Positions 828-25,854 of a stretch of DNA of 37,388 nt are shown one piece after another (the stretch's first letter is position 1; every line of letters starts with the position of its first letter). The stretch is from the UHGV virus genome UHGV-0235795, one strand, 5' to 3'. The notes below the pieces were generated by a model. It was not told the origin of the DNA and searched no databases. It saw only the letters and a list, made by a program, of their open reading frames with translations. The translations under genes were made by a program, and so were the position numbers. The stretch is from a virus.

Positions 828-832
828 TTTTA

Positions 833-5454: not shown

Positions 5455-5477
5455 ATACAGCATTTTCCTGTAGGTTT

Positions 5478-5504
5478 TCTGGGTTCGATTCCCGCCAGGT
5501 CCAC
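5478..5504 (+). other. tRNA 3'-end fragment (T-loop GGTTCGATTCC plus acceptor 3' strand), putative att core
   Basis: CTGGGTTCGATTCCCGCCAGGTCCA matches a tRNA T-arm/acceptor 3' half; no matching 5' half upstream, so it is a fragment typical of attP/attL carried next to int. Confidence 0.45.
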
Positions 5505-10680: not shown

Positions 10681-11462
10681 GCTGCTTCCCTCCGTTCCGG
10701 GAAGATATCCAAATCTATCCCATACGTTCCCGCCCAGTTCACCCGGATGAGACCGCTTGGGATCTTTTCAAAAATGGAATATTCATAACCTCGTTCATTA
10801 AACAGATTGGATACAGTTCCATTTGTCAGATATTTATATACTGTCTGCTCTGCGGAATCAATAATCATGTATTCATTGCGTTCCAGTGTGGTTCTGACTT
10901 CGTACGGGTATCCGTTGATTAATATCTTCGGATTTGTGCAAGGTCCGTATATCGTCATCTTAAAATCTGATGCAGAGGGATGGTCAATTTCAAATTCAGC
11001 CGTCCCCGCCCGAACATCTGCGAAATCAAAAGGAAAATCAAAGGGGAAGTCCAGTCCGCTTGCCGCTGTCATCTGACTTTGCGGAAAAAGCTGCTGACTT
11101 ACCACTGTCATCCATGACAAGGATGGGGCTGTAAAAGTAAGCTCCACCTCTGCCATATCGAACCCTTTCCAGTTCGACTTCTTTGACTTCTCCACACGGC
11201 AGGAGAGAAATGTATCATTGACGTACAATTTTCCATGTACTCCGAGATCTGCATCTACAGCAAGCACGCTGTACAGTTTTTCCATATTTTTCGCAAGACC
11301 TTCCCCGCTGCCATATACATCCACCTGTACCGTCTTCTGATATCCGCTTGCAGTCTCATCCCATTCGGAATCATACCAGTCTGCTTCTGCCGTATAATAC
11401 GGATCAACAAGAAAATTCAGGATCACTCCTTTTGAATTTATGTAATACGCTTCTCTTATCAT
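10674..11462 (-). CDS. Distal tail protein (Dit-like)
   Basis: 262 aa directly after tape measure, canonical Dit position. Confidence 0.55.
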   Translation of the reverse strand: MIREAYYINSKGVILNFLVDPYYTAEADWYDSEWDETASGYQKTVQVDVYGSGEGLAKNMEKLYSVLAVDADLGVHGKLYVNDTFLSCRVEKSKKSNWKGFDMAEVELTFTAPSLSWMTVVSQQLFPQSQMTAASGLDFPFDFPFDFADVRAGTAEFEIDHPSASDFKMTIYGPCTNPKILINGYPYEVRTTLERNEYMIIDSAEQTVYKYLTNGTVSNLFNERGYEYSIFEKIPSGLIRVNWAGTYGIDLDIFPERREAAW

Positions 11463-14400
11463 ATTTTCGGCACCGCTCCTTTCGGCAGTTCCCGGTCTAA
11501 CCGGGTCGTACCCAGGTATACCGGTCTGCTCTGCATCTTCTTAACACCGGCAGCCGTTGCATTCCCTACTTTCGTTGCCAGTTGCGTCAGATCCTCGTCT
11601 GAAATCCTCATAGTACTCTGTACGCTCTGCTGATTTATGATCTTTTCTGTACTCTGCAAGGCAAATGAGCTGGTGATCCTATTTGTATTCACCGCCATCG
11701 CCTCCCGCACCCGATTGGACAGATCTGCCATGTCCAGCGAATTCAGTGCCGAACGTGCCATTCGTTCTGAAGCCTTTTTTACAGCCGGAATCTGATCGTC
11801 AATTCCAAGTGCGAATCCCTTGCCAGAAAAACGCCCCGCTCCTCGCATTACTTTTGATGGTGAATGAATCCCCAGTACGCTCTTGACTTTTTCATAAGCC
11901 GTACTTGCCATCTCTGCCGCTTTTGATGCAGCTTTTCCAACCCAGTCACCAATTCCACGAACAAATCCTGATCCGAAATTAGACCCGGTATCGTATGAAT
12001 TAATACTTCCTGCTCCGCTTTTTGCACTGGTAGCAAGGGATGTTCCTTTTGCCCTTGCATCCCCTGCCTTACTTCCGACAGCAGAAGAATATGCTGTTCC
12101 GAACGATTTTCCAGTACTTCCCGGATTCACCGATCCAGCTCCACGCTTCGCACTGTCTGCCAGTCCTTTTCCTCTTGTCAACAGCTTCCCGACAAAACTG
12201 CCGATCGCTGTATCGAAAAATCTTCCAAATGCACTACCGGTCGAGGTCGGGTCAACAGCCCCTGCTCCTCTTTTTGCAGCTTCTGCATTCGCTTTTCCCT
12301 GTTGTTCCGAAACTGACAGCTGTGATCCGATTCCTTCATTAAAAGAAGTCATCAACCCTGATCCGATTTCTTTCGTATCTCCTACTGATCCCCGCATAGC
12401 ATCAAGCAGCCGGGAGATCACGCCAGTACCGGAAGAAGTAAGTTCCTCCTGACCTTCGTTCAATCCTTCAACCGCTCCTGGCCAGACATACGAAAAGATT
12501 TCTTTCACCGCACGGGACGGACTGTGGACATCAAGAGTCGTGATCAGGCTTTGCAGGAATGCATCCGCACCTTGCTCTGCCGGATCAACCAGCGTTTCAA
12601 ACCCTTCCAGTCCTTCCAAAGCTCCATACCACGCCTGTGACCACGTCTCTTTAGTTTTTTCGTCCAGTCCTGAAAATCCTTTCAGAAAGCTTTCCATTCC
12701 TGCCTGTGCCTCAGTGCTCAGCGTACCGGATATCTTTGCCTGTGCCATAGCCGCTACAAGTTTTGCAGAGCCATCCTTACCGGCATTTTTTAATATTTCC
12801 TTGATCTGATCCGCACCAGTTCCTACCTGATTCAGGGCAATCCCCATAGCCTCCGTCAAGCCATCTTTGGTCTGCTGGGTTAATTGCATTGTTCCATCTT
12901 TTTCAGCGAAAAAAATACTGGTAAGCTTATCTGTCATTGCACTGGCCTGCTCAATGGCTGCTTCTGATCCAATCTCCAAGGTTGTGTCAATTCCGCTCTG
13001 AATCTCTGCCAGTGCAGAGTTGATCGTATCAGTATTTCCACTCATTGCTGCCTCTGTCAGGCTACTGTAATCGGAGATGACTTTCTGATTATCCTGCATC
13101 GCCGCATTGGCAGCGTCAAAGTTTGCCTGCAATTCTTCCAGTCCACTACCTGCTTTTTCAAGCTTTTCCTTCAGTTCTCCGTACTTTTCAGTATTCCGCA
13201 CAATAGCTTCGCCCTGGGCATCATACCCCATTACTACAGCATTTGCCGATTCTGCTTCAAGTTCCTTCTCAAGTTCTGCGATCTTGCTTTTTTTGCTACT
13301 AAGCTTTTCGTAAGCGTCTGCCAGTTCAGCTGCCTTGTCTGCCTGCTCTTTCATTGCATCCGCATAGTCTGACTTCATGGAGTCAAGAACGGCTTCTGCT
13401 TTCTTTGCTGCGATCAGATCGTAGACAGATTTCTTCAAGTCGCTGTAGTTCTGAATCAGTCCATCGTTCAGGCTGATTTCTACACCTAACGCACTGGACA
13501 GCTCACCTGTGATATACGCTGCCCTTGCCTCCTGTCCTGCCTGCACCTTTCCATTCGCATCAACAATCTTTTGCAGTTCTCCCCACAATGCTTCTGCATT
13601 GTCGATCTCAGATGTGGCTGCCTGAATATTTTTCTGCCTTGCCGCTGCCTTTTCGTTAATACTGTCAATTTCATCCTGTGCCGCCTGGATATTTTCCTTT
13701 TGTGCCTCCGTCAGCCGATCTGTTGATGCCGCTTCATCATCCGTCAGCAGGATTGCTGTTCCGATACAGGCTGCCAGTGCCGCCCCTGCGGTAACAAGCA
13801 GACCGATTGGATTTGATGCCATAGCAGCGTTCAGGGCTGTCTGTGCTTTCGTCCACAGTCCGGTCAGGGCAGTCGTGACTCCGATCTGACCGCTATAGAC
13901 TCCCATCAGCGTTTCCCGGAGTGTCAGACCGCCGTTAGATGCTACAAGCTGTAAAGCATTGGCTTTTTCCATCGCAGTCAGCCTTGCCAGGGCTGCCGCA
14001 TTCAGGTTCGTCTGATTCTTGCTGACCTTTGTGGCTGTGCTATACAACTTCAATGCTGTTGTAGCTCCAGCCACCAATGGAGCTACGACACCCAGATTCC
14101 CACTCAACAGGTCGATGGCTTTTGTGACCGGTGGGAGTGCCACTTTCGCAAGCGTTCCTGCCGCTTTGGTCAGATTCTTGAATACAGATACTGCTTTTTT
14201 CCCGGCTGATTTCAACCCACCTGAATTGAGCGACTCTGACAAGGCTTCTACTGCATCCTGTGCCGGTTTCTTTAATTCTGCCGGCAGAAGGCTTGCAAGT
14301 CCTCCCGCTATTGATTCTGCCACTTCTGCTGCGGCTGTCAGAAGTCTTCCTTTATTTCCTGACACGCCGGAAATGAAAGATTCGATGAAATCAACCGCTG

Positions 14401-15601
14401 TATCCACCATTTCCGGTGCGTGGGATGCTGCATCCACGGCAAAATCTGCAAAGATGTTCCCGGCTTCTTTTACAGCCGATTTCAGACCGCCATTTTTAAA
14501 AGCGTTCGTCATATCACCTACAGCCTGAGTGGCTTGCACCGCCGTATCTTTCAGTGGCGTATCAAGAGATTCATAAATTTCAATGCCTAAACCCTCAAGG
14601 CTGGATTTCAAAATTGTAACCGCACCCTCGAGGTTGTCCTGCATCGTCTCCGACATATTCGCTGCTGTTCCATCAGCATTCTTTATAGCAGATGCGAGCT
14701 TGTCAAAATCGCTTTCTGACGCATTGACTATAGCCAGCAATCCTGACATAGCCTCCTGCCCTCCAATTGCCGCTGCCGCCGCTGCCTGCTCATCCGCGGG
14801 CAACCCCTGAAGGGAATCCCGCATATTCTCCATGACTTGCATCAGGGTTTTCATGCTGCCATCTGCGTTTTTCATGGATATATCATATTTGTCCAATGCC
14901 GCTGATGCTTCTTTTGGCGGCTTGGCCAGTCTGGTCAGCACACTCCTGAGGGCAGTACCTGCCTGGGTTCCCTTGATTCCCGAGTTTGCCATCAGTCCGA
15001 TAGCTTGGGACAGGTCTTCAATGTTATACCCCAACGCTCCTGCTACTGGTGCAGCATATTTAAATGTCTCACCCATCATAGAGACATTGGTGTTCGCATT
15101 ACTGGATGCTGCCGCAAGGACATTTGCGAAATGGGTGGAGTCCGATGCAGCCAGTCCCATCGCTGTCAGTGCATCTGTAACGATGTCAGAAGTCGTTGCA
15201 AGATCTTCACCGGATGCCGCTGCAAGATCCATGATCCCCTCAATACCGGACAGCATATCCTGTGTCTTCCATCCTGCCATAGCCATGTATTCCATAGCCT
15301 GAGCAGATTCAGAGGCACTGAACTTCGTCTTTGCCCCCATCTCCTTTGCCTTGTCAGTCAGCTTCTGCAGATCATCTCCTGTAGCTCCTGAAATGGCTGA
15401 TACTTTCGACATCTCGGACTCGAAACTGACACCAACCTTTACAGCTGCCGCTGCTGCACCTCCGAGAGCTGTGGACACTGCACTCACTGCTGTTGCTACG
15501 GTTTTCAGTCCGGTTTTCGCAAGTTTTCCCATTTTGCTTAAATCTTTTTCAATACCGGATGTGTCCAGTCCAGTATCGATAATCACTTTTCCGTCTGCCA
15601 A
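11459..15601 (-). CDS. Tail tape measure protein
   Basis: 1380 aa, Ala/Gly-rich with long coiled coils, C-terminal triplicated KRGAG(A/S)V(D/N)P.STG.(S/N)FG modules; TTG start right after the chaperone gene. Confidence 0.9.
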   Translation of the reverse strand: MADGKVIIDTGLDTSGIEKDLSKMGKLAKTGLKTVATAVSAVSTALGGAAAAAVKVGVSFESEMSKVSAISGATGDDLQKLTDKAKEMGAKTKFSASESAQAMEYMAMAGWKTQDMLSGIEGIMDLAAASGEDLATTSDIVTDALTAMGLAASDSTHFANVLAAASSNANTNVSMMGETFKYAAPVAGALGYNIEDLSQAIGLMANSGIKGTQAGTALRSVLTRLAKPPKEASAALDKYDISMKNADGSMKTLMQVMENMRDSLQGLPADEQAAAAAAIGGQEAMSGLLAIVNASESDFDKLASAIKNADGTAANMSETMQDNLEGAVTILKSSLEGLGIEIYESLDTPLKDTAVQATQAVGDMTNAFKNGGLKSAVKEAGNIFADFAVDAASHAPEMVDTAVDFIESFISGVSGNKGRLLTAAAEVAESIAGGLASLLPAELKKPAQDAVEALSESLNSGGLKSAGKKAVSVFKNLTKAAGTLAKVALPPVTKAIDLLSGNLGVVAPLVAGATTALKLYSTATKVSKNQTNLNAAALARLTAMEKANALQLVASNGGLTLRETLMGVYSGQIGVTTALTGLWTKAQTALNAAMASNPIGLLVTAGAALAACIGTAILLTDDEAASTDRLTEAQKENIQAAQDEIDSINEKAAARQKNIQAATSEIDNAEALWGELQKIVDANGKVQAGQEARAAYITGELSSALGVEISLNDGLIQNYSDLKKSVYDLIAAKKAEAVLDSMKSDYADAMKEQADKAAELADAYEKLSSKKSKIAELEKELEAESANAVVMGYDAQGEAIVRNTEKYGELKEKLEKAGSGLEELQANFDAANAAMQDNQKVISDYSSLTEAAMSGNTDTINSALAEIQSGIDTTLEIGSEAAIEQASAMTDKLTSIFFAEKDGTMQLTQQTKDGLTEAMGIALNQVGTGADQIKEILKNAGKDGSAKLVAAMAQAKISGTLSTEAQAGMESFLKGFSGLDEKTKETWSQAWYGALEGLEGFETLVDPAEQGADAFLQSLITTLDVHSPSRAVKEIFSYVWPGAVEGLNEGQEELTSSGTGVISRLLDAMRGSVGDTKEIGSGLMTSFNEGIGSQLSVSEQQGKANAEAAKRGAGAVDPTSTGSAFGRFFDTAIGSFVGKLLTRGKGLADSAKRGAGSVNPGSTGKSFGTAYSSAVGSKAGDARAKGTSLATSAKSGAGSINSYDTGSNFGSGFVRGIGDWVGKAASKAAEMASTAYEKVKSVLGIHSPSKVMRGAGRFSGKGFALGIDDQIPAVKKASERMARSALNSLDMADLSNRVREAMAVNTNRITSSFALQSTEKIINQQSVQSTMRISDEDLTQLATKVGNATAAGVKKMQSRPVYLGTTRLDRELPKGAVPKI

Positions 15602-15606
15602 TCATC

Positions 15607-16224
15607 TCACCATCCTTTTAGCAGCTCGCTTACATCTTCGCCCCGTTCCAGTGCCTCCTCCAAAGCTTTCAATTTCGCCTTATCCGGTGCTTTCTCTGTA
15701 TCCAGTCCGTAATATTCCTGCATCGCCTGGTAGAATTTCTTTTGATCCTTCGATAAACCTTTTGCCGACAGATCCAGCGTCCGGTACTCCATGATCTTCT
15801 GAAATCTTGTATCTCCTCCGAGATTTTCAAGTAAGATCATAAATTTCCACCAGTGCATCTCCTCTGTCTGCAGGTCGATTCCGTACTGCTGGATAAATCC
15901 CGCATAGATCAGATCGGCATCTGCCTCAAAATCAAATGCCTGCTTGCTGTTGATCCCGGCGATCTTCCGTGGAAAATGTTTCCGTTCCGGCTCTCTCCCA
16001 CAAGAGAAAAACCACAGCATCTTGTCAAAATGTTCTTCCGTATACCAGGTGTACTGACCGTAAAAAAGCCTGAGCATTCTCGCCATCTCGTCCTCAGTCA
16101 GCTCTCTGCCTGCATCCTGGAGGATTTTCTGACAACACAAAACGGTGCGAAAATCCCAATGGATCGGACATTTCACACCGCTAATGGTCAGACTTACCGG
16201 AAAAGGCTCTGTCAGGGAACTCAT
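15607..16224 (-). CDS. Tail assembly chaperone (Gp15-like)
   Basis: Position between major tail protein and TMP; ATGA overlap with the preceding chaperone ORF. Confidence 0.5.
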   Translation of the reverse strand: MSSLTEPFPVSLTISGVKCPIHWDFRTVLCCQKILQDAGRELTEDEMARMLRLFYGQYTWYTEEHFDKMLWFFSCGREPERKHFPRKIAGINSKQAFDFEADADLIYAGFIQQYGIDLQTEEMHWWKFMILLENLGGDTRFQKIMEYRTLDLSAKGLSKDQKKFYQAMQEYYGLDTEKAPDKAKLKALEEALERGEDVSELLKGW

Positions 16225-16547
16225 TCAGCCCCTTTCATTCCCAGTCGCTCTTTTACTGCTCTATACCTCTCGCACTGTCGGATCTGTTCGTTAAGCAGTG
16301 CTTCATAAGCTTCCAGACATAAGAGGTGATCGTGACCCGTTCCGCATACTTTTTCCCCTGTGCCTTCCCCAAAAGTCACATCGAAAAGGTGCTTAACTGT
16401 ATCACACTGCTGTCTGATCGCATCTGGTTCCGTTCCTGTATCTCCAATCTTTGAGATTTCTTCCAGTTCTTTCAGATATGCCTTTTTACCCTCCTCAAAA
16501 TCCGGGTCAAAAAATGAAAAATTTAATGTAACTCCGTTAATCTGCAT
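16221..16547 (-). CDS. Tail assembly chaperone (gpG-like)
   Basis: ATG 16547 with GGAGGAG RBS 7 nt upstream; MQINGVTLNFSFFDPDFEEGKKAY...; canonical position after major tail protein. Confidence 0.5.
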   Translation of the reverse strand: MQINGVTLNFSFFDPDFEEGKKAYLKELEEISKIGDTGTEPDAIRQQCDTVKHLFDVTFGEGTGEKVCGTGHDHLLCLEAYEALLNEQIRQCERYRAVKERLGMKGAE

Positions 16548-16634
16548 TGTCTTTCTCCTCCATCTGTTCAAATAAATCTTTTTCTGCTTCGTCCGCTACA
16601 GCCTCACCAACTGAAGCATTATCAGTGAGGGAGA

Positions 16635-17165
16635 TTATTTCCCCTCTGTAAATGCCTTGGTTGCTGTGTTGAACGTACCCTTTACCCAGTCAGTCTTGCC
16701 AAGCAGGTTGCCGGATCCCTGAATTTCACCATCGTTATCCTTAAATTCAGAAATCTCAACCGCAACTTTTCTGCGTTTTGCTTCATAAGTTCCGGCTGAG
16801 CCGCTCACCGGTTTGTCCAGGTATACCTTCACGTAAAATGTATCTGCCTCCACTCCGGTCTTTTCGTTCTCGCCGATCTCCGAAATGTAAGCGATTGCCG
16901 GTTCACTCTGGATCAGATCGAACTCAAGCGGTGCTGTCCATTCATAACCGCCAATGCTCTGTGTTGCACTTTTCTGATTGACGTATCTCTTTGACGTAGT
17001 CTGTGCGGACGGTGAATCATCCAACTGGGTCACACCAATTCCGAGAAGCTCATATTTCGGGGAATCAGATCCTCCTGTAACATCAATGTAATCTGCACGC
17101 TGGTAACGCTGCGTTACACCAGTGTCTTTTGCTGCTTCAAAAATCTGTAAATTCATTCTTTTCAT
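16635..17165 (-). CDS. Major tail protein with L27-like N-terminal leader
   Basis: ATG 17165 with GGAGGT RBS; begins MKRMNLQIFEAAK; Ser/Thr/Gly-rich 176-aa protein in the tail tube position. Confidence 0.6.
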   Translation of the reverse strand: MKRMNLQIFEAAKDTGVTQRYQRADYIDVTGGSDSPKYELLGIGVTQLDDSPSAQTTSKRYVNQKSATQSIGGYEWTAPLEFDLIQSEPAIAYISEIGENEKTGVEADTFYVKVYLDKPVSGSAGTYEAKRRKVAVEISEFKDNDGEIQGSGNLLGKTDWVKGTFNTATKAFTEGK

Positions 17166-17169
17166 TGCC

Positions 17170-17598
17170 TTACCTCCGTTTGTAATATAAAAAGCGGCAC
17201 TGAATGCGGTACTGACATTTCGTGCCTTCGTTATCGTATAAATAACCGCCTGTCGTAGCCTGAATAGACTTACTCGTGAGATTTCCCGACAGTGCCGGAA
17301 GTCTTCCCTGCTCCGTACATTCATCCAGCCAGTCAGAGAATTTTTCGTAAAATTCCGCTGTGTCCTTGTTGCTCTCTTCTCCGTACCATTCCCGGGAACA
17401 AAGAGAAAATACCATCTGTCGGATCGCATCTCCGTTCGTATACCGTTTGACGATCGGGTCTGCCGGAGTAAGCTCCAGACTATACGCTGTTGCATCCTCT
17501 CCCAGCAGATCCACGTTCACGATCGGGAACATCTGTTCAAACTCTTCCAGGAACGGACAGCCTGCTATAAATTCAGCGACTTTGGTTGCTACACTCAT
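17170..17598 (-). CDS. Tail component protein (tail terminator/completion-like)
   Basis: ATG 17598 in ATGA overlap with the upstream gene; position between gp10-like protein and major tail protein. Confidence 0.45.
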   Translation of the reverse strand: MSVATKVAEFIAGCPFLEEFEQMFPIVNVDLLGEDATAYSLELTPADPIVKRYTNGDAIRQMVFSLCSREWYGEESNKDTAEFYEKFSDWLDECTEQGRLPALSGNLTSKSIQATTGGYLYDNEGTKCQYRIQCRFLYYKRR

Positions 17599-17924
17599 CC
17601 TGCTTTTCCTCCGCAAAAACTGGCTACTGCCTTTACAATCTCCGGCCCTCTGTCTGCCCACATCCGCTCTGCCCAGTGTGAACCCCGAAGACCATCTCCT
17701 TTGTGTTCATAATACTGCCGCCTTGCATAAGGTGCATTGTACGTGATCGTAGAGATTGCTTCTGTGGCATCCGTCTTCAATCGTCCAGTCAGCCGTGGGA
17801 CATAGGGGTCAGACAGTCTTCTGACTTCGCTTGTAAAAAACCTCTGCCCTTTTCCGTTCTTGTTCAGGCTTCTCCTGAGCAGGATCTGATCTTTCGGGTC
17901 TAACTGCATTCTGATTACCATCAC
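17595..17924 (-). CDS. HK97 gp10-like head-tail joining protein
   Basis: 109 aa, position and size; C-terminal GLRGSHWAERMWADRGPEIVKA. Confidence 0.45.
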   Translation of the reverse strand: MMVIRMQLDPKDQILLRRSLNKNGKGQRFFTSEVRRLSDPYVPRLTGRLKTDATEAISTITYNAPYARRQYYEHKGDGLRGSHWAERMWADRGPEIVKAVASFCGGKAG

Positions 17925-18325
17925 GCACCTCCACTGATTCTGATATGCGGGGATGATCCGACGAAGTTCTCGGAATGGCTCTTCACCACCCCGACTACTC
18001 CGCTATACTGCTTTTTCAGGTCATCAATCCCTGTGACTTCTCCACCGCACCATTCTCCCTGGATAAAGAGATCCCCATTCTGAACAGTCCAGCAAGATCC
18101 TTTCTGCCCTGTCGCAAATTGATCCACAGTTTTCCAGTCTGCACACTGATCAAATGGGATGCGGATCATATGCTCGTCCGAGCTGATCAGGCCACCCTGT
18201 GATGGCGTAGTCTTCCTGCTGACGTGATACCATGCCCAGTCAATCCGGTGCGGCAGATACACTATCTTTTTCTGCTCCTTATCCGGGTAACGGTTAAAGA
18301 GCGTGATCACTGCATTTGTAAGCAT
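17921..18325 (-). CDS. Head closure / head-tail adaptor protein
   Basis: ATG 18325 with GGAAGGTGG RBS; position after connector protein. Confidence 0.45.
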   Translation of the reverse strand: MLTNAVITLFNRYPDKEQKKIVYLPHRIDWAWYHVSRKTTPSQGGLISSDEHMIRIPFDQCADWKTVDQFATGQKGSCWTVQNGDLFIQGEWCGGEVTGIDDLKKQYSGVVGVVKSHSENFVGSSPHIRISGGA

Positions 18326-18707
18326 CACAATATCCCACCTTCCTGGACAGCCATCCCAGCGGAAGCAGATAGGTCCGTGCAACTTCGTAAGCTTTGCGGG
18401 ATGCGACCGCTTCTGCCGTCTCTCCGTCCACCTGCTCGTTTACATAAGTCACACTGTATCCGTCCGTATTTTCCGACTTTACAGATCCATTTCCCTGCTG
18501 ATTTTTCAGGTCGCAAGAATAATAAATCTCTGCAACTGCACATACAGCATCTTTTACGGTATCGTTTTCACAAGCAAAAATATCTCCGTGCATATAAGTC
18601 AGATGCCTTATATAGGCTTCTGCTTTTTTTTCTGCTTTTGCAAATTTTTCAAGTGGAATCAGCTCACCACCGTATTCAGACAAATAATAGAAATGATCCG
18701 CATACAT
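18294..18707 (-). CDS. Head-tail connector (gp6-like) protein
   Basis: ATG 18707 with AGGAAGGAG RBS; directly downstream of the major capsid gene. Confidence 0.45.
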   Translation of the reverse strand: MYADHFYYLSEYGGELIPLEKFAKAEKKAEAYIRHLTYMHGDIFACENDTVKDAVCAVAEIYYSCDLKNQQGNGSVKSENTDGYSVTYVNEQVDGETAEAVASRKAYEVARTYLLPLGWLSRKVGYCDAYKCSDHAL

Positions 18708-18724
18708 ATTGTCTTGCTCCTTCC

Positions 18725-19705
18725 TTATTCTCCCGCTTTCAGGATCGCAAACGGGCATCTCTTGGTCTTATCTTTTGCAAGAGCATTGATTGGATTCGGG
18801 ATTTCCCATCCAAGACGCATCACCGCACGAAGAGCAATCATATCATTCTGCATCAGGTTGTATGCGATAGTTCCATCGGTGTTCTGAATCACGCCTTCCG
18901 TGAATAACTTGAATGTAATATCCTGTCTGATGGAATATACAAGCTGAGAGAAGTCTCCTGAAATCATCAGTGCCTTTGATTTGTCAAACGCTCCGTTGTT
19001 TGGGAAATTCATCGGAGAGCCATCTAAAGCATACTGCGTTGTTCCCTGCAGATCCTGCTTGAACAGCGGATCACCATTCGCATTCTTCAATCCCCTGAGC
19101 TTTGCTCTCATGGAGATATCTGCCATGTGACCATTCACAAAGTAGCCGGACCCCTCGACTTTTGCGATGACACCATCTTCTGCCATAATCTTGTCATAAA
19201 GGCTGTCAGATGCTCCGAGTGTTACGACTGCACTCGCCTTTGTTGCAGTTGCAACAACATCTTCTCTCCATGTTGACGGCTTATTTTCTCCAAAAAGCAC
19301 CGCTCCATCAATGACTTTTCCAAATGCTTCTGTTACTCTTGGCTTTACTTCTGACCAAATATCATATTCTGAATCATCCAATACGGCTTCTGGAATCGGA
19401 ACAATTACCGCAATTTCTTCTGCAGTGATAAACTTCTTGTCCCATTCCTGCTTTGCTGTCTTTTTCTGACCGTTATCTCCGTTTACGAAATACGCAATCG
19501 GTAACATATCCAGAACTGGCATTTTATACTGTTTACTTGTCATATTCGCCAGCTTACGTCCTCTTGACAGAACTGCTGACTGTGCGATCGTTCCCTGGAT
19601 GATCTCGTTGGATTCCTGAATCGGAATTAAAGCCTCTGCCCCGCTACGATCAATGATATTTACGTCTGTTTCAAATAATTTTAAATTCATTCTGGTTCTG
19701 TTCAT
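18725..19705 (-). CDS. Major capsid protein with L27-like N-terminal leader
   Basis: 326 aa beginning MNRTRMNLKLFETD; follows the scaffold gene; canonical order. Confidence 0.75.
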   Translation of the reverse strand: MNRTRMNLKLFETDVNIIDRSGAEALIPIQESNEIIQGTIAQSAVLSRGRKLANMTSKQYKMPVLDMLPIAYFVNGDNGQKKTAKQEWDKKFITAEEIAVIVPIPEAVLDDSEYDIWSEVKPRVTEAFGKVIDGAVLFGENKPSTWREDVVATATKASAVVTLGASDSLYDKIMAEDGVIAKVEGSGYFVNGHMADISMRAKLRGLKNANGDPLFKQDLQGTTQYALDGSPMNFPNNGAFDKSKALMISGDFSQLVYSIRQDITFKLFTEGVIQNTDGTIAYNLMQNDMIALRAVMRLGWEIPNPINALAKDKTKRCPFAILKAGE

Positions 19706-19717
19706 CTTCTACCTCCA

Positions 19718-20323
19718 TCACTTTCTTGCTGCAGCACGGATACGTTCATTGATAGAAGTATTCATGCTTCCACCAGCTCCCTCCGAAGAGCTTCCTGAAG
19801 ACGTAGACACCCGATACGTGCCACTGCCTGTATATTTCGGATTTTCTTTCAAATACTGTTCTGCAGCTTTTTCAAATGTTGTCTTGTCGTTTACAAGTTT
19901 CGATACCTTGAACATGACATAATCAAGATCCTCTGTCTTCACACCTTTACCTGACAGAAATTTCTCATTTTTCATCTGCTGAACTTCCTTCAAAGCGTCA
20001 TCACGTTCTTCCTGCAGCTTTGCCGTGTCCGGCTGATTTGCCGCACGTTCTGCCTTGAATTTTGTGATTGCTTCTGTGACTTCTCCCTCTGTCATTCCCT
20101 GACCACGGAAAAAGCTTGCAAGAGCTGCACGTTCCGACTTGCTTGCCCTGGCACTTGCAATTTCTTCCAGCTGTTCATAGGTATAAGTTCCGGAATTGGC
20201 AGCTCCGGTTGCACTTCCAGCGGATCCCTGACCGCTGTTCCCAGTCCCGGCATTTCCACTCTGTCCATTAGAGCCAGCTCCGCTGCCGTCCTCGAAAAGC
20301 TGTAACATCATTCTTTTTCTCAT
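19718..20323 (-). CDS. Scaffolding protein with L27-like N-terminal leader
   Basis: Begins MRKRMMLQLFEDG; Gly/Ser-rich N-terminus, central coiled coil, basic C-terminus; between Prp and capsid. Confidence 0.7.
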   Translation of the reverse strand: MRKRMMLQLFEDGSGAGSNGQSGNAGTGNSGQGSAGSATGAANSGTYTYEQLEEIASARASKSERAALASFFRGQGMTEGEVTEAITKFKAERAANQPDTAKLQEERDDALKEVQQMKNEKFLSGKGVKTEDLDYVMFKVSKLVNDKTTFEKAAEQYLKENPKYTGSGTYRVSTSSGSSSEGAGGSMNTSINERIRAAARK

Positions 20324-20380
20324 TTCTACCTCCGTTTATGCTTCGTTGAGCTCCCGAGCTTTTAACGCCTTCACGTTTTG

Positions 20381-20408
20381 GGCAAAAGAAAAACACCCCT
20401 CAGGGTGT
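20381..20408 (-). terminator. Intra-operon rho-independent terminator between Prp and scaffold genes
   Basis: Minus-strand hairpin ACACCCTGAGGGGTGT followed by TTTTTCTTTTG. Confidence 0.45.
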
Positions 20409-20411
20409 CTC

Positions 20412-20735
20412 CTACAAAAATGTTATACAATTATATTCCCGGTTGATATCTGTCAATCCGAGAAACCACGAATCCAGTAGCAACTTCCCTCTGTCAGAAA
20501 GCCGCTCCCATTCGATTACGGTTCTTCCGCTCCCGGTATCTGCCCTGATCCGGTCACCTGTCAGATCATTCAGCGAATTGATCAGGTTGCAGGTGAGAGC
20601 AGATACCGCTGCACACGCCCGGTCAATCCCGTCTGAACCTTTTCGGCAGGCATGACCGGTCATGTGGATGTTGCTCGGTGTTATGGTTATCTCAATCACT
20701 GGATCACCTCCTGAAAATGAGTACAAAAATACCAC
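20412..20735 (-). CDS. prp: Prp-family cysteine protease (ribosomal-processing protease homolog)
   Basis: GHACRKGSDGIDRACAAVSALTCNLINSLNDL carries the Prp/YsxB His...Cys catalytic dyad signature. Confidence 0.7.
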   Translation of the reverse strand: MVFLYSFSGGDPVIEITITPSNIHMTGHACRKGSDGIDRACAAVSALTCNLINSLNDLTGDRIRADTGSGRTVIEWERLSDRGKLLLDSWFLGLTDINREYNCITFL

Positions 20736-20757
20736 CGGTCATTACGACTGGTGGTGA

Positions 20758-20961
20758 CTATACAAATTCTACTGTATTTCCAACAAATTCCCCTTTTCCT
20801 TCAATTGCAATATGCTTTGGAAGATCATAAACAGGGACGGGCTCATATTCCTTACCTTCAATTCTGTATTTACTATATTTTTTCAACGGAATATCCTCAT
20901 TTAACTCAAGTGCAGTATATTTTCCTATTTGCCATTGACTTAAAACCGTTCTCATCATCAC
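20758..20961 (-). CDS. Small protein, candidate immunity partner of MuF-fused toxin
   Basis: 67 aa, starts with ATGA overlap at the stop of the MuF gene. Confidence 0.35.
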   Translation of the reverse strand: MMMRTVLSQWQIGKYTALELNEDIPLKKYSKYRIEGKEYEPVPVYDLPKHIAIEGKGEFVGNTVEFV

Positions 20962-22601
20962 AGCTCTCCTTTCCTAAATTTTTCCAGTTGTTTCTGATAT
21001 TCTACAAGCTGTTTCTGTGTCACTTCTATCTCATTTCTAGGAATTTTATATTTATTAGCATTATCCAATAAATATTGTTTCGCATCTATTTCGTTTAATA
21101 TACTGCGAAGGGGTTCCCCTTTATCATCATTCATTTTAGCTATGTTTTGTTCAAAATGATATGTTTCTTCCAACACTTCGCTAATGCATACATCCTTACG
21201 AAAGATTAGAGCATCCCCCACAATTGAAGCTGCTGCCCCCTGTTTTTCCAAATGTTCCTCTGCTTCTTTTGTTCCACGAATAATAATTGCCCCCTTCTTT
21301 TTAACGGCTATAGTCAAATTATTAAAGACATCATCGCTAATGAATTTCAATCCTTTTCGAGGATCAGAAGCTTTCCTCTTCAATTCTATTATATCAGAGC
21401 TAAACGGTTTTTCAATATATTCTCCAACTCTTTTATATTTTGCATTTGAGATTCTTCCCCGTCCATCAATATAGATTCTCTCCCGTTCTTCCTTGAGTCC
21501 CATCTTCCGAGAGAATACCGCATATTCATTAAGCTGTCCTTGGTACTTTGCTTTTTGGAGCATTACTTCCTGTGGATCAGCACCGCCTTTTTGCAATAGC
21601 TGCACCTTTTCACGCTGTGCCCGCATAGCAGTTTCCATTTGACGCTGTCTTTGCTTTGCTTCATACAGTGTATATTCTTTACCACGGAACTCGGTCGGCT
21701 CGCTTTCTTTCCGATTCTGTTCGTCTAGCCAGTCATCCGTATAAGTTCGTACCGATACACCGGGAACAAAAGGGAAATAAGTATGGTAGCAGTTTGCTCC
21801 ACATAGTCCGGTTACTGTACCGAGTCCACAGACATCATACAATTGCTGTTGACTCCACACTCTGCCCTGCCATATCGTATGCGTTGGTCTTGCCCCTGCG
21901 TGCCATTCCACTTCAAAATATTCCGTACCGAGCTTTTCTGCATTATACTCCGCAATCTTTCCGGAAAGTTGTGTAAGCCCGGTCATAACCGCCCGCCTTG
22001 CCGCAACCTCGATCCGGCTTGCATACCCCGATGAATATTCGATCTGCCGGAGTCCACTATTTGTAAGTTGAGTGACTACCCGCCTAAGAACTGCATTATA
22101 ATCAAACGCTCCTGTCACAATATCCATGCAGGCATTATCAAGATACCCACTGTATACCTGCGACAATGGAGTTAATACCTTTCTGCCGCCATAATCCAAA
22201 TAAAAGCCCAGAGATCTTGTTATATTTTCCAAGTCCTCAAGGCTTTGCTTTTTGATAGCTGATGTCACCTGTATCAGATGTTCATTTTCTTCAAAAGGTA
22301 TGTATTCCGCATTGATCTGTTCATAGATGTCCTTGTTCCTGACATATTCCCAGTCGATCACTTTGTCGTACAGTTCAAACATTTCCGGGTAAGAAGCATT
22401 CAGAGTGTCTTTCAATGCATTTTCAATGTCCTCCGAAGAATACCCCAGTATTTTTAACCGGTTAATCTGCCAGTCTGCTGTGCTGGTGATTTCGCCCGTC
22501 TTCTTAATTCTCCGAACAATATCCTGCATGATCCTGACTTCAAGATCTGCGTATCTTGCCGCAATCTTGCTGGCGATCTTTTCCTTGTATTCATTTCTCA
22601 T
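20958..22601 (-). CDS. Head morphogenesis protein (SPP1 gp7 / MuF-like) with ~200-aa C-terminal extension (putative polymorphic toxin domain)
   Basis: N-terminus IASKIAARYADLEVRIMQDIVRRIKKTGEITSTADWQINRLK and GANCYHTYFPF match minor-capsid-2/MuF; the domain ends near residue 340, followed by a coiled-coil linker and a C-terminal domain of unknown family. Confidence 0.7.
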   Translation of the reverse strand: MRNEYKEKIASKIAARYADLEVRIMQDIVRRIKKTGEITSTADWQINRLKILGYSSEDIENALKDTLNASYPEMFELYDKVIDWEYVRNKDIYEQINAEYIPFEENEHLIQVTSAIKKQSLEDLENITRSLGFYLDYGGRKVLTPLSQVYSGYLDNACMDIVTGAFDYNAVLRRVVTQLTNSGLRQIEYSSGYASRIEVAARRAVMTGLTQLSGKIAEYNAEKLGTEYFEVEWHAGARPTHTIWQGRVWSQQQLYDVCGLGTVTGLCGANCYHTYFPFVPGVSVRTYTDDWLDEQNRKESEPTEFRGKEYTLYEAKQRQRQMETAMRAQREKVQLLQKGGADPQEVMLQKAKYQGQLNEYAVFSRKMGLKEERERIYIDGRGRISNAKYKRVGEYIEKPFSSDIIELKRKASDPRKGLKFISDDVFNNLTIAVKKKGAIIIRGTKEAEEHLEKQGAAASIVGDALIFRKDVCISEVLEETYHFEQNIAKMNDDKGEPLRSILNEIDAKQYLLDNANKYKIPRNEIEVTQKQLVEYQKQLEKFRKGEL

Positions 22602-22602
22602 A

Positions 22603-24018
22603 TCACTCCATCACCTGATTTTGCTCGGGAAGATTCTGACGAGCCTGCTCAACCGTTTCTCCATACCACTTCGCCCGATATTCTTCCAACCTCATCACGC
22701 CCATGCTCACATCCTGCCGATCCTGCTGACGTTCCGAATCCTTATCCTCAATGATGGAATCATCAAAGTCTATCGTGATTTCTGTATCAGGATCCAGTAC
22801 ATTCCCCGTGACCTGACCAAGCCGGATAATAATTCTGATTAATCTTTTTAACACGTCCTCCAGGATAATTTCATGCTTTTTCAGCATCCGGTACATGTCC
22901 GAATTTTCGGAAATGATTTCCGTGGCTGTTTTTGCCTCAACGCCATTAAATTGATACCGGTTCGTACCAAATCCGCACTTCAAGGAAAGATAATTCAGAT
23001 CGTCATTGATTGCTTTGCTGTGCTGTTCTACCCGGAGCTGCATATCAACTTCTTTGATAAGCCCTTCACCTTTTTCGTTATAATCATCCGGCAGTTTGTA
23101 AAATACTGCATCCTCTGGGTCAAATGCCGGTGTTCCGTCATCATTTGTCAGCAACTCAGGTGCGACAAAAATACGTTTTCGACCAAGATCAAATTCATTA
23201 CAGTACGAATCATATTCAGTATCCAGCTTTCTCAACGTATCAACAGCATTCGCAAAAATCGCAATCCCCATCGGGTTGCTCGTATCTGTATTATTGGTTA
23301 TGTTTAAACGGTCAAGCACAAACTGCGGCTCTGTCGATCCGGTTTGAACAGTAGCTGTCAAATTCTTAAATGGTCGCAATTCTTTCCATTCTTTCTCATC
23401 AACTTCTGTTCCTGAAGACTCACCGGATCCACATCTGAGAACTTTATTTTCTATGATGTAATTTCCATCTTCTGCTTTTCGATGATGCTGCAAATGCACA
23501 TATTTCTTTCGATTGGCTGTATGCGGAAAAGCAAAAATACACTCCGAAACTTCTCCATTCTTCCAACTCACTGGAAAAATATTGGGTGCATCCACATATT
23601 CAATTCCAATCTTTCCTGATAGTACGGAGCCGTCCTCGCTCACTTCCGTATCATACAAATACGGAATGTATGCAACTGTTCCAGTGTATGCCTTACGCTC
23701 CTGGAAGTCATTTCCGATCACCAGAAAATGGTTTTCATCTAATATTTCCTGCACAAATTTTTGTGTAGCATCATCTTCCAATGTGATCATAACCTTTTCG
23801 TTTAGCAGCAGGTCTGCAATATCCTCAGAAATCTTTTTCGCCATCCCCATGCTCTTTCGCCTGCATCGGTTATACGTTCCACGCCCAGTATACGCCTTGT
23901 AAAAAGAAAACCCTCTTACATTTGAGTTGTACCAGCTGATCCATTCGTTTATCTTTTGATAAAATGACGTATCCACAGTGTCTATTCCTGCTTTCCTGAA
24001 ATAACTAAAAATATTCAC
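22603..24018 (-). CDS. Portal protein
   Basis: 471 aa immediately downstream of terminase large subunit. Confidence 0.75.
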   Translation of the reverse strand: MNIFSYFRKAGIDTVDTSFYQKINEWISWYNSNVRGFSFYKAYTGRGTYNRCRRKSMGMAKKISEDIADLLLNEKVMITLEDDATQKFVQEILDENHFLVIGNDFQERKAYTGTVAYIPYLYDTEVSEDGSVLSGKIGIEYVDAPNIFPVSWKNGEVSECIFAFPHTANRKKYVHLQHHRKAEDGNYIIENKVLRCGSGESSGTEVDEKEWKELRPFKNLTATVQTGSTEPQFVLDRLNITNNTDTSNPMGIAIFANAVDTLRKLDTEYDSYCNEFDLGRKRIFVAPELLTNDDGTPAFDPEDAVFYKLPDDYNEKGEGLIKEVDMQLRVEQHSKAINDDLNYLSLKCGFGTNRYQFNGVEAKTATEIISENSDMYRMLKKHEIILEDVLKRLIRIIIRLGQVTGNVLDPDTEITIDFDDSIIEDKDSERQQDRQDVSMGVMRLEEYRAKWYGETVEQARQNLPEQNQVME

Positions 24019-25373: not shown

Positions 25374-25854
25374 TCTCTACTCCCCCATCTTCATCTCCAT
25401 CGCCGCCGCTCATCCTTGCTGTATTCGCACGGATCTGTTCAATTCTTGCCTGCTGCTCCTCTTCATCCAGTTCTGTCTTTTCCGTCCAACCCTTGAAGTT
25501 GTTTCTCAGGCTGAACTGAGCCCCGCTCGACCCGTCCCGGTCAAAGAGCCGTTCTTCTGCATACGCTTCCACCCTTGCCTTCGCACGTGTTATCGTGTTC
25601 ATAAACTCCTTTTTCCCTTGATAGTTCAATAATGACAGCCTCGTGGAAAATCCAAGTGCTAAAGCCAGTCCTGTGACTGTTGGCGGGCGCTGATTAATAA
25701 TAACTGGATTTCCAAATTTATTAAAAACCGTATTTCCATTGTTGTCTTTCAGGACTTCACCCTCGCACTGTTTAAAATAAGCATCTATTTTTTCTTCGAT
25801 TTCTTCTTTACTCTTATACTTTGGCGGTCTTCCGACTGCCTTTTTTGTAGCCAT
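25300..25854 (-). CDS. terS: Terminase small subunit
   Basis: N-terminus MATKKAVGRPPKYKSKEEIEEKIDAYFKQC (HTH DNA-binding), acidic tail; precedes terL. Confidence 0.75.
   Translation of the reverse strand: MATKKAVGRPPKYKSKEEIEEKIDAYFKQCEGEVLKDNNGNTVFNKFGNPVIINQRPPTVTGLALALGFSTRLSLLNYQGKKEFMNTITRAKARVEAYAEERLFDRDGSSGAQFSLRNNFKGWTEKTELDEEEQQARIEQIRANTARMSGGDGDEDGGVEIVNDAPKEASEDIGDNNPEIPADI

What the first reader, a model, noticed from the sequence alone, without database searches (positions are those of the whole stretch)
16635..20735. Phage-encoded Prp protease and L27-type cleavable leaders on three structural proteins
Scaffold (MRKRMMLQLF-EDG), major capsid (MNRTRMNLKLF-ETD) and major tail protein (MKRMNLQIF-EAA) all begin with a basic stretch followed by M-x-L-x-(L/I)-F-E. 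This mirrors the N-terminal extension of Firmicutes ribosomal protein L27 (...MNLQLF-A), which the Prp cysteine protease removes. The phage also encodes its own Prp homolog, with a GHA...C(A)AVS dyad, directly upstream of the scaffold gene. In staphylococcal phage 80alpha the host Prp trims scaffold and capsid. A leader on the major tail protein, together with a phage-borne Prp, would extend that mechanism.
Basis: partly seen in the sequence, partly recalled or inferred. Interest (0 to 1): 0.55.

Follow-up and report, generated by a model that had tools for sequence, protein, structure and literature searches.

The report
Phage-borne Prp protease with three cleavable leaders
A temperate gut phage of Lachnospiraceae carries its own copy of the small protease that bacteria use to trim ribosomal protein L27, and its scaffold, capsid and tail-tube proteins all begin with the matching L27-like tag; the same arrangement recurs in hundreds of phages of Gram-positive bacteria but is barely described in the papers I could read.

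Summary
On the minus strand, a 95-aa Prp-family cysteine protease gene (20412-20699; true start GTG 20699, not 20735) lies just upstream of the scaffold gene (19718-20323), the major capsid gene (18725-19705) and, 3 kb further on, the tail tube gene (16635-17165). The three products begin MRKRMMLQLF|E, MNRTRMNLKLF|E and MKRMNLQIF|E. The motif occurs only at these three sites in all six frames (0.16 expected). The protease passes Pfam PF04327, has the Prp fold (TM about 0.8 to S. aureus Prp), and keeps the His/Cys/Ser active-site residues. The tail protein matches a solved tail tube protein, and leaderless orthologs show the leader is an N-terminal add-on.

The arrangement is not unique. It recurs in 51 Prp clusters of viral contigs and in cultured phages (Brochothrix BL3, Enterococcus phiFL3A, Acutalibacter Fontainebleau, Dorea DO134P1). 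The leaders sit on at least eight major-tail-protein families.

In this tail-protein family, all seven leader-bearing genome types I examined encode a phage Prp, and the one leaderless phage without leaders on its head proteins has none. In three relatives the tail tube protein is the only tagged protein.

Known precedents are host Prp with phage 80alpha, a published note on the phi13 tail protein, and the Cp-1 protease. I rate this a new variant of a known kind, of moderate interest.

The parts
20412..20699 (-). Phage-encoded Prp-family (MEROPS C108 / PF04327) cysteine protease, 95 aa. Start is GTG 20699, after an AGGAGG site. Proposed active site: His16, Cys29, Ser33.
   Evidence: Pfam 51.3 bits against cut-off 27. 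PHROG 4478 'peptidase', 88.9 bits. PDB sequence hits 2G0I, 2IDL and 4PEO with His and Cys aligned. AF2 model pLDDT 89 with bb-a-bb-a-b topology. The 14 best Foldseek PDB hits are all Prp structures, TM 0.71-0.81.
19718..20323 (-). Head scaffolding protein, 201 aa. The leader MRKRMMLQLF is encoded at 20294-20323. Predicted cut F10|E11.
   Evidence: PHROG 2303 'head scaffolding protein', 143.6 bits. Sequence and RBS. Nearly all related IMG/VR loci that contain the scaffold gene keep a leader on it.
18725..19705 (-). HK97-fold major capsid protein, 326 aa. The leader MNRTRMNLKLF is encoded at 19673-19705. Predicted cut F11|E12.
   Evidence: PF05065 98.9 bits. TIGR01554. PDB 8EDU E=4e-66 and 80alpha capsid protein 6B0X E=5.7e-17. 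Leader conserved in relatives.
16635..17165 (-). Major tail (tail tube) protein, 176 aa. The leader MKRMNLQIF is encoded at 17139-17165. Predicted cut F9|E10.
   Evidence: PDB 11ok_A 'Phage tail tube protein', E=1.1e-36, aligned from residue 16 of the window protein to residue 2 of the chain. Profile search gives E=1.6e-50. PHROG 3099. Synteny: it lies between the tail-completion gene and DUF6673, Gp15 and the tape measure gene. Orthologs without a leader start at the conserved GV.QRY.
20715..20760 (-). Hairpin followed by a U-run immediately upstream of the protease gene.
   Evidence: RNA fold -13.3 kcal/mol, z=-3.08. The consensus terminator scan did not list it.
20375..20415 (-). Hairpin followed by a U-run between the protease stop codon and the scaffold gene.
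   Evidence: RNA fold -13.4 kcal/mol, z=-1.79, a weak signal.
20958..24018 (-). Upstream head genes: SPP1-type portal (22603-24018) and minor capsid protein 2 (20958-22601). No other protease gene lies in the morphogenesis module.
   Evidence: PF05133 and PF06152. No ClpP, U35 or S49-type prohead protease was found in Pfam or PHROG scans of the module's genes from terminase to tape measure.
11459..16571 (-). Genes downstream of the tail tube gene: DUF6673 (16221-16571), Gp15-like (15607-16224) and tape measure protein (11459-15601). They fix the identity of 16635-17165 by gene order.
   Evidence: PF20378, PF06854 and PF10145.

Best explanation
The window is a temperate siphophage or prophage of human-gut Lachnospiraceae. 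It uses a phage-encoded Prp-family cysteine protease as its virion maturation protease.

Proposed mechanism:
- Scaffold, major capsid protein and tail tube protein are each made with a 9-11-residue N-terminal tag: a basic stretch followed by M-(N/M)-L-(Q/K)-(L/I)-F. The tag copies the removable extension of host ribosomal protein L27.
- The phage Prp (His16/Cys29) binds positions P6-P1 of the tag and cuts after the Phe.
- The mature proteins then begin at E11 (scaffold), E12 (capsid) and E10 (tail tube).
- The tag probably keeps the subunits assembly-incompetent or chaperoned until they are cut. This couples head and tail-tube polymerisation to one enzyme.

Shown here:
- Family membership, fold and active-site residues of the protease.
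- The identity of the three substrate proteins.
- That the tags are non-random, N-terminal add-ons.
- That they co-occur with phage Prp genes across many lineages.

Inferred, not shown:
- That cleavage happens.
- That the phage enzyme rather than the host enzyme does it.
- The exact cut site.
- The role of the tag in assembly.
For: (1) The protease is genuine.
- PF04327 above threshold.
- His, Cys and the Ser at Cys+4 align with S. aureus H22, C34 and S38.
- The AF2 model (pLDDT 89) has the C108 topology. Its 14 best PDB matches are all Prp structures, including the substrate complexes 7KLD and 7JVS.

(2) The tags are real. There are 3 motif hits against 0.16 expected, all 4-6 residues after RBS-preceded starts of structural genes.

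(3) There is experimental precedent. Host Prp cuts F|A in the homologous N-terminal tags of 80alpha capsid and scaffold (PMC5744158). The window capsid protein is a homolog of the 80alpha capsid protein (6B0X).

(4) The tail-protein tag is a detachable module. Orthologs in L052, L017, P0094 and PDB 11ok start directly at the conserved body.

(5) Tags co-occur with phage Prp genes.
- In this tail-protein family, leader-bearing members from 7 of 7 genome types examined sit beside a phage Prp gene (window, L137, L260, L262, L265, L266, L267).
- The leaderless P0094 phage (L264) has no Prp and no head leaders.

(6) The pattern is general.
- 249 loci with a phage Prp fall into 51 clusters at 70% identity.
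- 43 of those clusters have at least 6.5 kb of downstream sequence. Of these, 40 have at least one tagged structural ORF, about 26 have a tagged tail-protein-sized ORF, and 18 have all three.
- The tagged third proteins hit eight PHROG families, seven of them named major tail protein. The only invariant alignment columns across them are M, L, Q and F of the tag.

(7) In L260, L262 and L267 the tail tube protein is the only tagged protein next to a Prp gene.

(8) No other protease gene lies in the morphogenesis module.
Against: - There are no protein-level data for this phage or for any relative I could find.
- The host has its own Prp, and the 80alpha precedent shows that a phage can rely on it.
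- The commonest tag in this tail-protein family, MKMNLQFF|A, matches the L27 extension of a likely host relative (R. torques MMKMNLQFF'AHKK). The host enzyme could therefore process at least some tags.
- P1' is Glu here, whereas every characterised Prp substrate has Ala or Ser. Prp enzymes are reported to be highly specific (PMC9261936).
- In 80alpha, cleavage of the capsid protein is dispensable, and for the scaffold it is the presence of the tag, not its removal, that is required. Cleavage may therefore not be the essential step.
- Co-occurrence was counted on loci that were mostly fetched through the Prp gene itself. ORFs were called with my own simple heuristics.
Confidence: 0.68

Rival explanations
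1. The host chromosomal Prp removes the tags, as in 80alpha. The phage copy would be a dosage booster or serve another purpose, for example keeping host L27 maturation going, or subverting it, during infection.
For: - 80alpha precedent.
- Tail-protein tags such as MKMNLQFF|A match the Lachnospiraceae L27 extension over M-K-M-N-L-Q-F-F-A.
- P1' is not uniform within genomes L265 (D, E, A) and L266 (E, E, A). This allows a division of labour between the phage and host enzymes.
Against: - The gene sits inside the head module next to its presumed substrates in every lineage.
- Presence and absence of tags track the phage gene.
- The window's three tags all carry E at P1' and L or I at P2, unlike host L27, which has F-F|A.
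- The phage protein scores far below the chromosomal Prp equivalog cut-offs (36.6 against 166 bits).
Confidence: 0.17
2. The tags are not removed. They would act only as assembly, chaperone-docking or translation-regulatory tags. The Prp-like protein would bind them without cutting, or cut something else.
For: In 80alpha the scaffold N-terminal sequence is required for assembly, but its cleavage is not. Capsid cleavage is dispensable (PMC5744158).
Against: - His, Cys and Ser of the active site are invariant across all phage homologs aligned.
- The P4-P1 core L-Q-x-F that positions the scissile bond in the 7KLD complex is the best conserved part of the tags.
- Leaderless orthologs, including the tail tube protein in a solved structure, begin close to the predicted mature N-terminus.
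Confidence: 0.08
3. The resemblance is a coincidence of basic, hydrophobic N-termini or an artefact of start-codon choice.
For: None beyond the shortness of the motif.
Against: - 0 of 300 shuffles reach three hits.
- Each start has a GGAGG site.
- The tags are conserved in hundreds of relatives and across non-homologous tail proteins.
Confidence: 0.01

Closest known systems
Host Prp (MEROPS C108) processing of Staphylococcus phage 80alpha capsid (gp47) and scaffold (gp46) proteins, and of ribosomal protein L27
   Same: - Same protease family and fold.
- Same kind of short N-terminal tag: basic or hydrophobic residues, then N-L-Q-x-F, with the cut after Phe.
- The tag is on both scaffold and capsid.
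- The capsid proteins are homologous (6B0X, E=5.7e-17).
   Different: - Here the protease gene is carried by the phage, in the head module.
- A third substrate, the tail tube protein, is tagged.
- P1' is Glu and P2 is Leu or Ile, instead of F-F|A or H-F|A.
- The phage enzyme scores far below the chromosomal equivalog models.
The remark of Kizziah et al. 2017 that the Prp motif also occurs on the major tail protein of staphylococcal phage phi13
   Same: A Prp-type N-terminal motif on a major tail protein. The authors suggest that Prp associates with self-assembling complexes, including tails.
   Different: - That was a one-line sequence remark about a phage assumed to use host Prp.
- Here the tag is seen on tail proteins hitting eight PHROG families, beside phage-encoded Prp genes.
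- In some phages the tail protein is the only tagged protein.
Streptococcus phage Cp-1 maturation protease (Martin et al. 1998; placed in MEROPS C108 with Prp)
   Same: A phage-encoded member of the Prp clan or family that trims the N-terminus of the major head protein and is needed for maturation (PMC12445089). Cp-1 orf13 weakly matches PF04327 at 18.5 bits.
   Different: - Cp-1 is a phi29-like podovirus.
- It removes 48 residues.
- The residues around position 48 of its head protein do not match the L27-like motif.
- No scaffold or tail substrate is reported.
- The window protein is a much closer relative of bacterial Prp.
Classical prohead proteases (HK97 gp4/U35, ClpP-like S14, S49, T4 gp21)
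   Same: Same functional slot: a protease gene between portal and scaffold/capsid that trims head proteins.
   Different: - Unrelated fold and catalytic type.
- Those enzymes work inside the procapsid and remove long delta or scaffold domains.
- They are not known to process tail tube proteins.

Membership tests
Prp cysteine protease family (Pfam PF04327, MEROPS C108) | Sequence match above the curated family threshold | tested here: met
   PF04327 51.3 bits against a gathering score of 27, covering profile positions 1-86 of 90. The precomputed Pfam domain is PF04327 for all 120 listed homologs.
Prp cysteine protease family (Pfam PF04327, MEROPS C108) | [quoted passage not shown] | tested here: met
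   The AF2 model (pLDDT 89, pTM 0.81) has elements E-E-H-E-E-H-E. The Foldseek top 14 PDB hits are all Prp structures (7KLD, 7JVS, 2G0I, 2IDL, 4PEO, 1S12), TM 0.71-0.81. The next hit has E=7e-3. The topology is as described in PMC9405229.
Prp cysteine protease family (Pfam PF04327, MEROPS C108) | Catalytic His-Cys dyad, plus the Ser four residues after the Cys | tested here: met
   GHA(16) and C29-A-A-V-S33 align with H22, C34 and S38 of S. aureus Prp. G, H, A and C are invariant in alignments A1 and A4. These residues are invariant in 33 close homologs.
Prp cysteine protease family (Pfam PF04327, MEROPS C108) | Endopeptidase activity after Phe in an L27-type leader | not testable with these tools
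   This needs an enzyme assay or mass spectrometry.
Chromosomal ribosomal-processing Prp (YsxB ortholog) | Gene lies between rplU (L21) and rpmA (L27), and scores above the NCBIfam equivalog cut-off | tested here: not met
   The gene lies between a minor-capsid/67-aa ORF and the scaffold gene of a phage head module. The best NCBIfam Prp equivalog scores 36.6 bits against a cut-off of 166. NCBI nevertheless names close prophage copies 'ribosomal-processing cysteine protease Prp'.
Prp-cleavable L27-type N-terminal extension | Short N-terminal extension (about 8-14 aa) ending in L-Q-x-F | tested here: met
   The extensions are 10, 11 and 9 residues long. P4 is L, P3 is Q, K and Q, and P1 is F. 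For comparison see L27 Table 2 of PMC9405229 and the consensus of 233 phage leaders.
Prp-cleavable L27-type N-terminal extension | Small residue (Ala, rarely Ser) at P1' and an aromatic residue at P2, as in characterised substrates | tested here: not met
   P1' is Glu in all three, and P2 is L, L and I. Acidic P1' is typical of this clade and of the Fontainebleau clade. Most other clades have Ala.
Prp-cleavable L27-type N-terminal extension | The extension is dispensable for the fold, that is, absent from some orthologs | tested here: met
   Tail tube orthologs L052, L017, P0094 and PDB 11ok start at the conserved body.
Prp-cleavable L27-type N-terminal extension | The extension is absent from the mature protein | not testable with these tools
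   No virion proteomics were found for this phage or its relatives. Literature searches are.
80alpha-type host-dependent maturation | The phage encodes no maturation protease of its own | tested here: not met
   A Prp gene is present at 20412-20699.
Siphophage major tail (tube) protein | Homology to a structurally defined tail tube protein, and a position between the tail-completion gene and the chaperone and tape-measure genes | tested here: met
   PDB 11ok_A, E=1.1e-36. Gene order. My own AF2 model of this protein was too poor to use (pLDDT 43.7).

The most novel reading that the evidence does not exclude
Phage-borne Prp proteases may form a widespread, essentially undescribed maturation system of Firmicutes siphophages. 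The system would gate tail-tube polymerisation as well as head assembly through one portable L27-like tag.

- In some lineages (L260, L262, L267) the tail tube protein is the only tagged protein.
- In the window's lineage the enzyme-tag pair has drifted to an acidic P1'. This goes with Arg instead of Tyr/Phe two residues after the GHA motif. The phage system may therefore be partly insulated from the host Prp/L27 pathway.
- A corollary: prophage copies could back up, or interfere with, host L27 processing. This bears on Prp as an antibiotic target and on why Firmicutes L27 carries the extension at all.
Probability: 0.35. Interest if true: 0.72.

Novelty: new variant of a known kind. Interest (0 to 1): 0.55.

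Why it matters
1. The arrangement would show that a ribosome-maturation protease family has been taken up by phages as a general virion maturation enzyme. A single transplantable 9-11-residue tag would be placed on non-homologous head and tail proteins.

2. A cleavable tag on tail tube proteins points to proteolytic control of tail assembly. The papers held here carry only a passing remark on this.

3. Prp is promoted as a narrow-spectrum antibiotic target. A 2026 preprint shows that a mobile-element protease (Rrp) can bypass Prp in S. pneumoniae. Prophage-encoded Prp copies are common in gut Lachnospiraceae and are auto-annotated as the ribosomal enzyme. They are obvious candidates for similar redundancy.

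4. The system is experimentally reachable. Cultured phages with the full arrangement exist: BL3, phiFL3A, Fontainebleau and DO134P1. TP712, in Lactococcus lactis, has the protease and tagged head proteins but an untagged tail protein.

5. It bears on the open question of why Firmicutes L27 has the extension. The Dokland group speculates on a phage-related origin.

Tried and rejected
- **Strict P1' co-adaptation.** I tested whether all substrates in a genome share the P1' residue dictated by their own Prp. This held for the window (E, E, E), Fontainebleau (D, D, D), and BL3 and L137 (A, A, A). It failed in L265 (D, E, A) and L266 (E, E, A).
- **Loop residue against P1'.** The association between GHA+2 = Arg and acidic P1' is strong in counts. 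It is confounded by shared ancestry, so I keep it only as a hypothesis.
- **AF2 model of the tail protein.** It was unusable (pLDDT 43.7). I replaced it with a direct PDB sequence hit.
- **Terminator scan.** The consensus scan did not report the hairpins that flank the protease gene. Folding supports the upstream one (z=-3.1) but the downstream one only weakly.
- **Literature.** All ten full-text searches found no paper that describes phage-encoded Prp homologs with L27-like tags. Several primary papers are not held: Wall 2015 and 2017, Martin 1998, and Liu & Mushegian 2004. An earlier mention therefore cannot be excluded.
- **NF5 virion structure.** The Brochothrix NF5 paper says nothing on processing.
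- **Host L27.** I could not retrieve the L27 of the actual host. I used the published L27 N-termini of related Lachnospiraceae instead.
- **Cp-1 as closest relative.** Rejected. Its protease is only a marginal PF04327 match, and the residues around position 48 of its head protein do not match the L27-like motif.
- **DUF6751 protein.** Its N-terminus, MLTNAVITLF-N, is not a fourth tag. It is part of the conserved body and lacks the L-Q core.


Full report
**What is in the window.** All genes of the finding lie on the minus strand, in a standard siphophage late operon.

| Gene | Coordinates |
|---|---|
| Small terminase | 25300-25854 |
| Large terminase | 24015-25373 |
| SPP1-type portal | 22603-24018 |
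| Minor capsid protein 2 | 20958-22601 |
| 67-aa ORF | 20758-20961 |
| Prp homolog | 20412-20699 |
| Scaffold | 19718-20323 |
| HK97-fold major capsid protein | 18725-19705 |
| Adaptor, DUF6751, Minor_capsid_2 and tail-completion genes | 17170-18758 |
| Candidate tail tube protein | 16635-17165 |
| DUF6673 | 16221-16571 |
| Gp15-like | 15607-16224 |
| Tape measure protein | 11459-15601 |

Tail tip genes, holin, endolysin and an integrase follow. No ClpP, U35 or S49-type prohead protease is present in the module. Close relatives of the protease occur as prophages or contigs of Mediterraneibacter, Blautia, [Ruminococcus] faecis and other Lachnospiraceae. NCBI holds one copy from [Ruminococcus] lactaris.

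**Checking the observation.** Each of the three genes has a GGAGG site 6-8 nt before its ATG. Their products start MRKRMMLQLF-EDG, MNRTRMNLKLF-ETD and MKRMNLQIF-EAA.
- The pattern M.L.[LIFVM]F[EAD] is found three times in the six-frame translation of the whole window, only at these N-termini.
- Shuffled windows give 0.16-0.17 hits, and none of 300 shuffles reaches three.
- The protease ORF as listed mechanically starts at GTG 20735. An AGGAGG site precedes GTG 20699 instead. The Pfam profile and all relatives align from that residue, and database homologs are 95-96 aa long. The protein is therefore 95 aa.

**The protease.**
- It passes PF04327 (51.3 bits, cut-off 27) and PHROG 4478 'peptidase'.
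- It aligns with the solved Prp structures with its GHA histidine and CAAVS cysteine on the catalytic His22 and Cys34 of S. aureus Prp. Ser33 falls on Ser38, which the 2022 review calls essential.
[quoted passage not shown] Its 14 best PDB matches are all Prp structures, TM 0.71-0.81.
- It is not the chromosomal ortholog. It scores 36.6 bits against NCBIfam Prp equivalog cut-offs of 133-225 bits, and it lies in a phage head module.

**The substrates.**
- The capsid protein is PF05065/TIGR01554. It matches solved capsids, including that of 80alpha (6B0X, E=5.7e-17), the protein whose tag host Prp is known to remove.
- The scaffold is PHROG 2303.
- The third protein has no Pfam match. It hits PDB 11ok chain A, 'Phage tail tube protein', at E=1.1e-36, or 1.6e-50 with a family profile.
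- That alignment begins at residue 16 of the window protein and residue 2 of the solved chain. Orthologs in L052 (MGVKQRYQEADY...), L017 and P0094 also begin there.
- The 9-residue tag plus a 6-residue linker is therefore an appendage on an otherwise complete tail tube protein.

**Relatives.** I fetched 66 and then 80 IMG/VR loci through the protease, with 62-94% identity.
- Nearly all those that contain the genes carry tags on scaffold and capsid. P1' is almost always Glu or Asp.
- The tail tag appears only where the window's tail-protein type is present (L002-L009). Other tail modules joined to the same head module have untagged tail proteins.
- Conversely, the window's tail-protein family is almost always tagged in the protein database. 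73 of 120 cluster representatives begin MKMNLQFFAE... and others have ...IF|EE or ...LF|EE.

I looked up genome context for representative members of this tail-protein family.

| Locus | Phage Prp | Scaffold tag | Capsid tag | Tail tube tag |
|---|---|---|---|---|
| L137 | yes | ...DLQLF\|A | ...NLQRY\|A | MKMNLQFF\|A |
| L265 | yes | F\|D | F\|E | FF\|A |
| L266 | yes | F\|E | F\|E | LF\|A |
| L260, L262 | yes | none (unrelated head proteins) | none | ...IF\|EE, ...LF\|EE |
| L267 | yes | none (unrelated head proteins) | none | ...NLQLF\|A |
| L264 | no | none | none | none |

Counting the window itself, that is seven tagged genome types out of seven with a phage Prp. In L260, L262 and L267 the tail tube tag is the only tag.

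**Generality.** Further scans used other phage Prp sequences and a mixed alignment.
- In total, 249 loci carry a Prp gene, falling into 51 clusters at 70% identity.
- 43 clusters have at least 6.5 kb of downstream sequence. Of these, 40 have at least one tagged structural ORF, about 26 have a tagged ORF of tail-protein size in the expected place, and 18 have all three. These counts rest on my own ORF and RBS heuristic, and a few classifications are wrong.
- Sixteen representative tagged third proteins match eight PHROG families: 238, 1407, 158, 584, 820, 41 and 3884, all named major tail protein, plus the unnamed 3099. When aligned together, their only invariant columns are M, L, Q and F of the tag.
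- 233 distinct tags give this consensus: K/R at P7, M/F/L at P6, N/D at P5, then L-Q-L-F, with A (49%), E (20%) or D (13%) at P1'. The modal length is 10-11 residues. P4, P3, P1 and P1' were constrained by the search pattern.

Cultured phages show the same arrangement.

| Phage | Tags |
|---|---|
| Brochothrix BL3 | LF\|A, KF\|A, KF\|A |
| Enterococcus phiFL3A | FF\|A, IF\|A, LL\|A |
| Acutalibacter phage Fontainebleau | LF\|D on all three |
| Dorea phage DO134P1 | LF\|A, VF\|T, VF\|S |
| Lactococcus TP712 | scaffold and capsid only |

In the GenBank records of cultured phages the gene is labelled 'peptidase', 'ribosomal protein', 'DUF464', 'unknown' or hypothetical, or is left unannotated. 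'YsxB-like' appears for a metagenomic Caudoviricetes copy in the protein database.

**Mechanism.** The most economical reading has four steps.
1. The phage enzyme recognises P6-P1 of the tag. This is the part that makes the specific contacts in the S. aureus complex, according to PMC9261936.
2. It cuts after Phe.
3. The tag holds scaffold, capsid and tail tube subunits in a pre-assembly state.
4. The tag is then removed.

The protease and substrate identities, the add-on nature of the tag and the co-occurrence are shown. Cleavage, the enzyme responsible and the assembly role are inferred.

The main rival is that host Prp does the work. In its favour, the commonest tail tag, MKMNLQFF|A, matches the Ruminococcus torques L27 extension MMKMNLQFF'AHKK. 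Against it are the gene's fixed position beside its substrates, the presence/absence pattern, and the acidic P1' in this lineage.

I tested whether P1' is dictated by the cognate enzyme.
- Counts link Arg two residues after GHA with D/E at P1', and Tyr/Phe/His at that position with Ala.
- The acidic group may be a single clade, and L265 and L266 mix P1' residues.
- The idea therefore remains a hypothesis.

**Comparison with what is known.**
- Host Prp cleavage of 80alpha capsid and scaffold is established.
- Kizziah et al. 2017 already remarked that the motif occurs on the phi13 major tail protein, and that Prp seems to associate with ribosomes, procapsids and tails.
- MEROPS places the phage Cp-1 maturation protease in the same family. 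Cp-1 orf13 is only a marginal PF04327 match, and the residues around position 48 of its head protein do not match the L27-like motif.
- None of the papers I could search mentions phage-encoded Prp genes. These include a 2022 review devoted to Prp bioinformatics and two preprints from the Dokland group, dated 2025 and 2026.
- The two original Wall papers were not available, so prior mention cannot be ruled out.

**Verdict.** The finding is real and correctly read in outline, but it is one instance of a widespread arrangement. I file it as a new variant of a known kind.
- New here relative to what I could read: a phage-borne Prp, tail tube proteins as substrates, and tail-only configurations in some relatives.
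- Known: Prp-mediated trimming of phage structural proteins.
- Interest is moderate (0.55).

Noticed in passing
window 20715-20760 and 20375-20415 (minus strand): The protease gene is bracketed by two hairpins, each followed by a U-run. The upstream one has z=-3.1 and the downstream one z=-1.8. They may attenuate read-through so that the enzyme is made in smaller amounts than scaffold and capsid, or they may mark a gene cassette.
   Followed up: partly
L260:1338-2437, L262:1182-2406, L068:8438-8932: In relatives with a different head module, the Prp gene is preceded by a 110-aa ORF with an HExxH motif (RHEIIH) and by a Tad2-like (PF11195) gene. Tad2 is an anti-Thoeris family. The 164-aa ORF just upstream of the unannotated Prp gene in Dorea phage DO134P1 looked Tad2-like to me by eye only; I did not scan it.
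   Followed up: no
L260, L262, L267 (tail protein at 6001-6549 or 3993-4529): These are phages in which a Prp gene is present but scaffold and capsid carry no tag. The tail tube protein is then the only recognisable substrate.
   Followed up: partly
L236:13766, L245:10336, L251:14232, L252:13520, L253:10285, L258:14579: Several tape measure proteins in Prp-encoding phages have ...LQ(D/E)(F/Y)|A about 21 residues from their start. This could be a fourth substrate class or just a conserved N-terminal helix.
   Followed up: no
proteins P0145, P0218, P0221, P0127: Close prophage copies of this protease are named 'ribosomal-processing cysteine protease Prp' by NCBI, in [Ruminococcus] lactaris and in Lachnospiraceae MAGs. 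Other sources call them 'YsxB-like protein [Caudoviricetes sp.]'. Genome surveys of Prp copy number or essentiality could be misled by this.
   Followed up: no
L137:358-2221 and L139:399-2196: A group II intron reverse transcriptase (RVT_1 + GIIM) sits immediately before a short terminase C-terminal fragment. This suggests an intron inside the large terminase gene of those relatives.
   Followed up: no
window 1-5500: This is a low-GC (36-37%) lysogeny and accessory region on the plus strand. It holds an ImmA/IrrE-type M78 peptidase (1232-1714), a 530-aa T5orf172/MUG113-domain protein (1791-3383), a HicB-like antitoxin (3772-4170) and a tyrosine integrase (4252-5454).
   Followed up: no
window 30917-32296 and 36314-36844: A C-5 cytosine DNA methyltransferase and a YdcK-type beta-solenoid repeat protein lie in the early region.
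   Followed up: no
window 17139-17182, 19673-19722, 20294-20340: The three tagged genes share very similar translation-initiation regions, (A/T)GGAGGTA(G/A)(A/G), as well as similar tag codons. Capsid and tail tags share AGAATGAATTTA...TTTGAA. This could reflect intragenomic copying of the tag.
   Followed up: no
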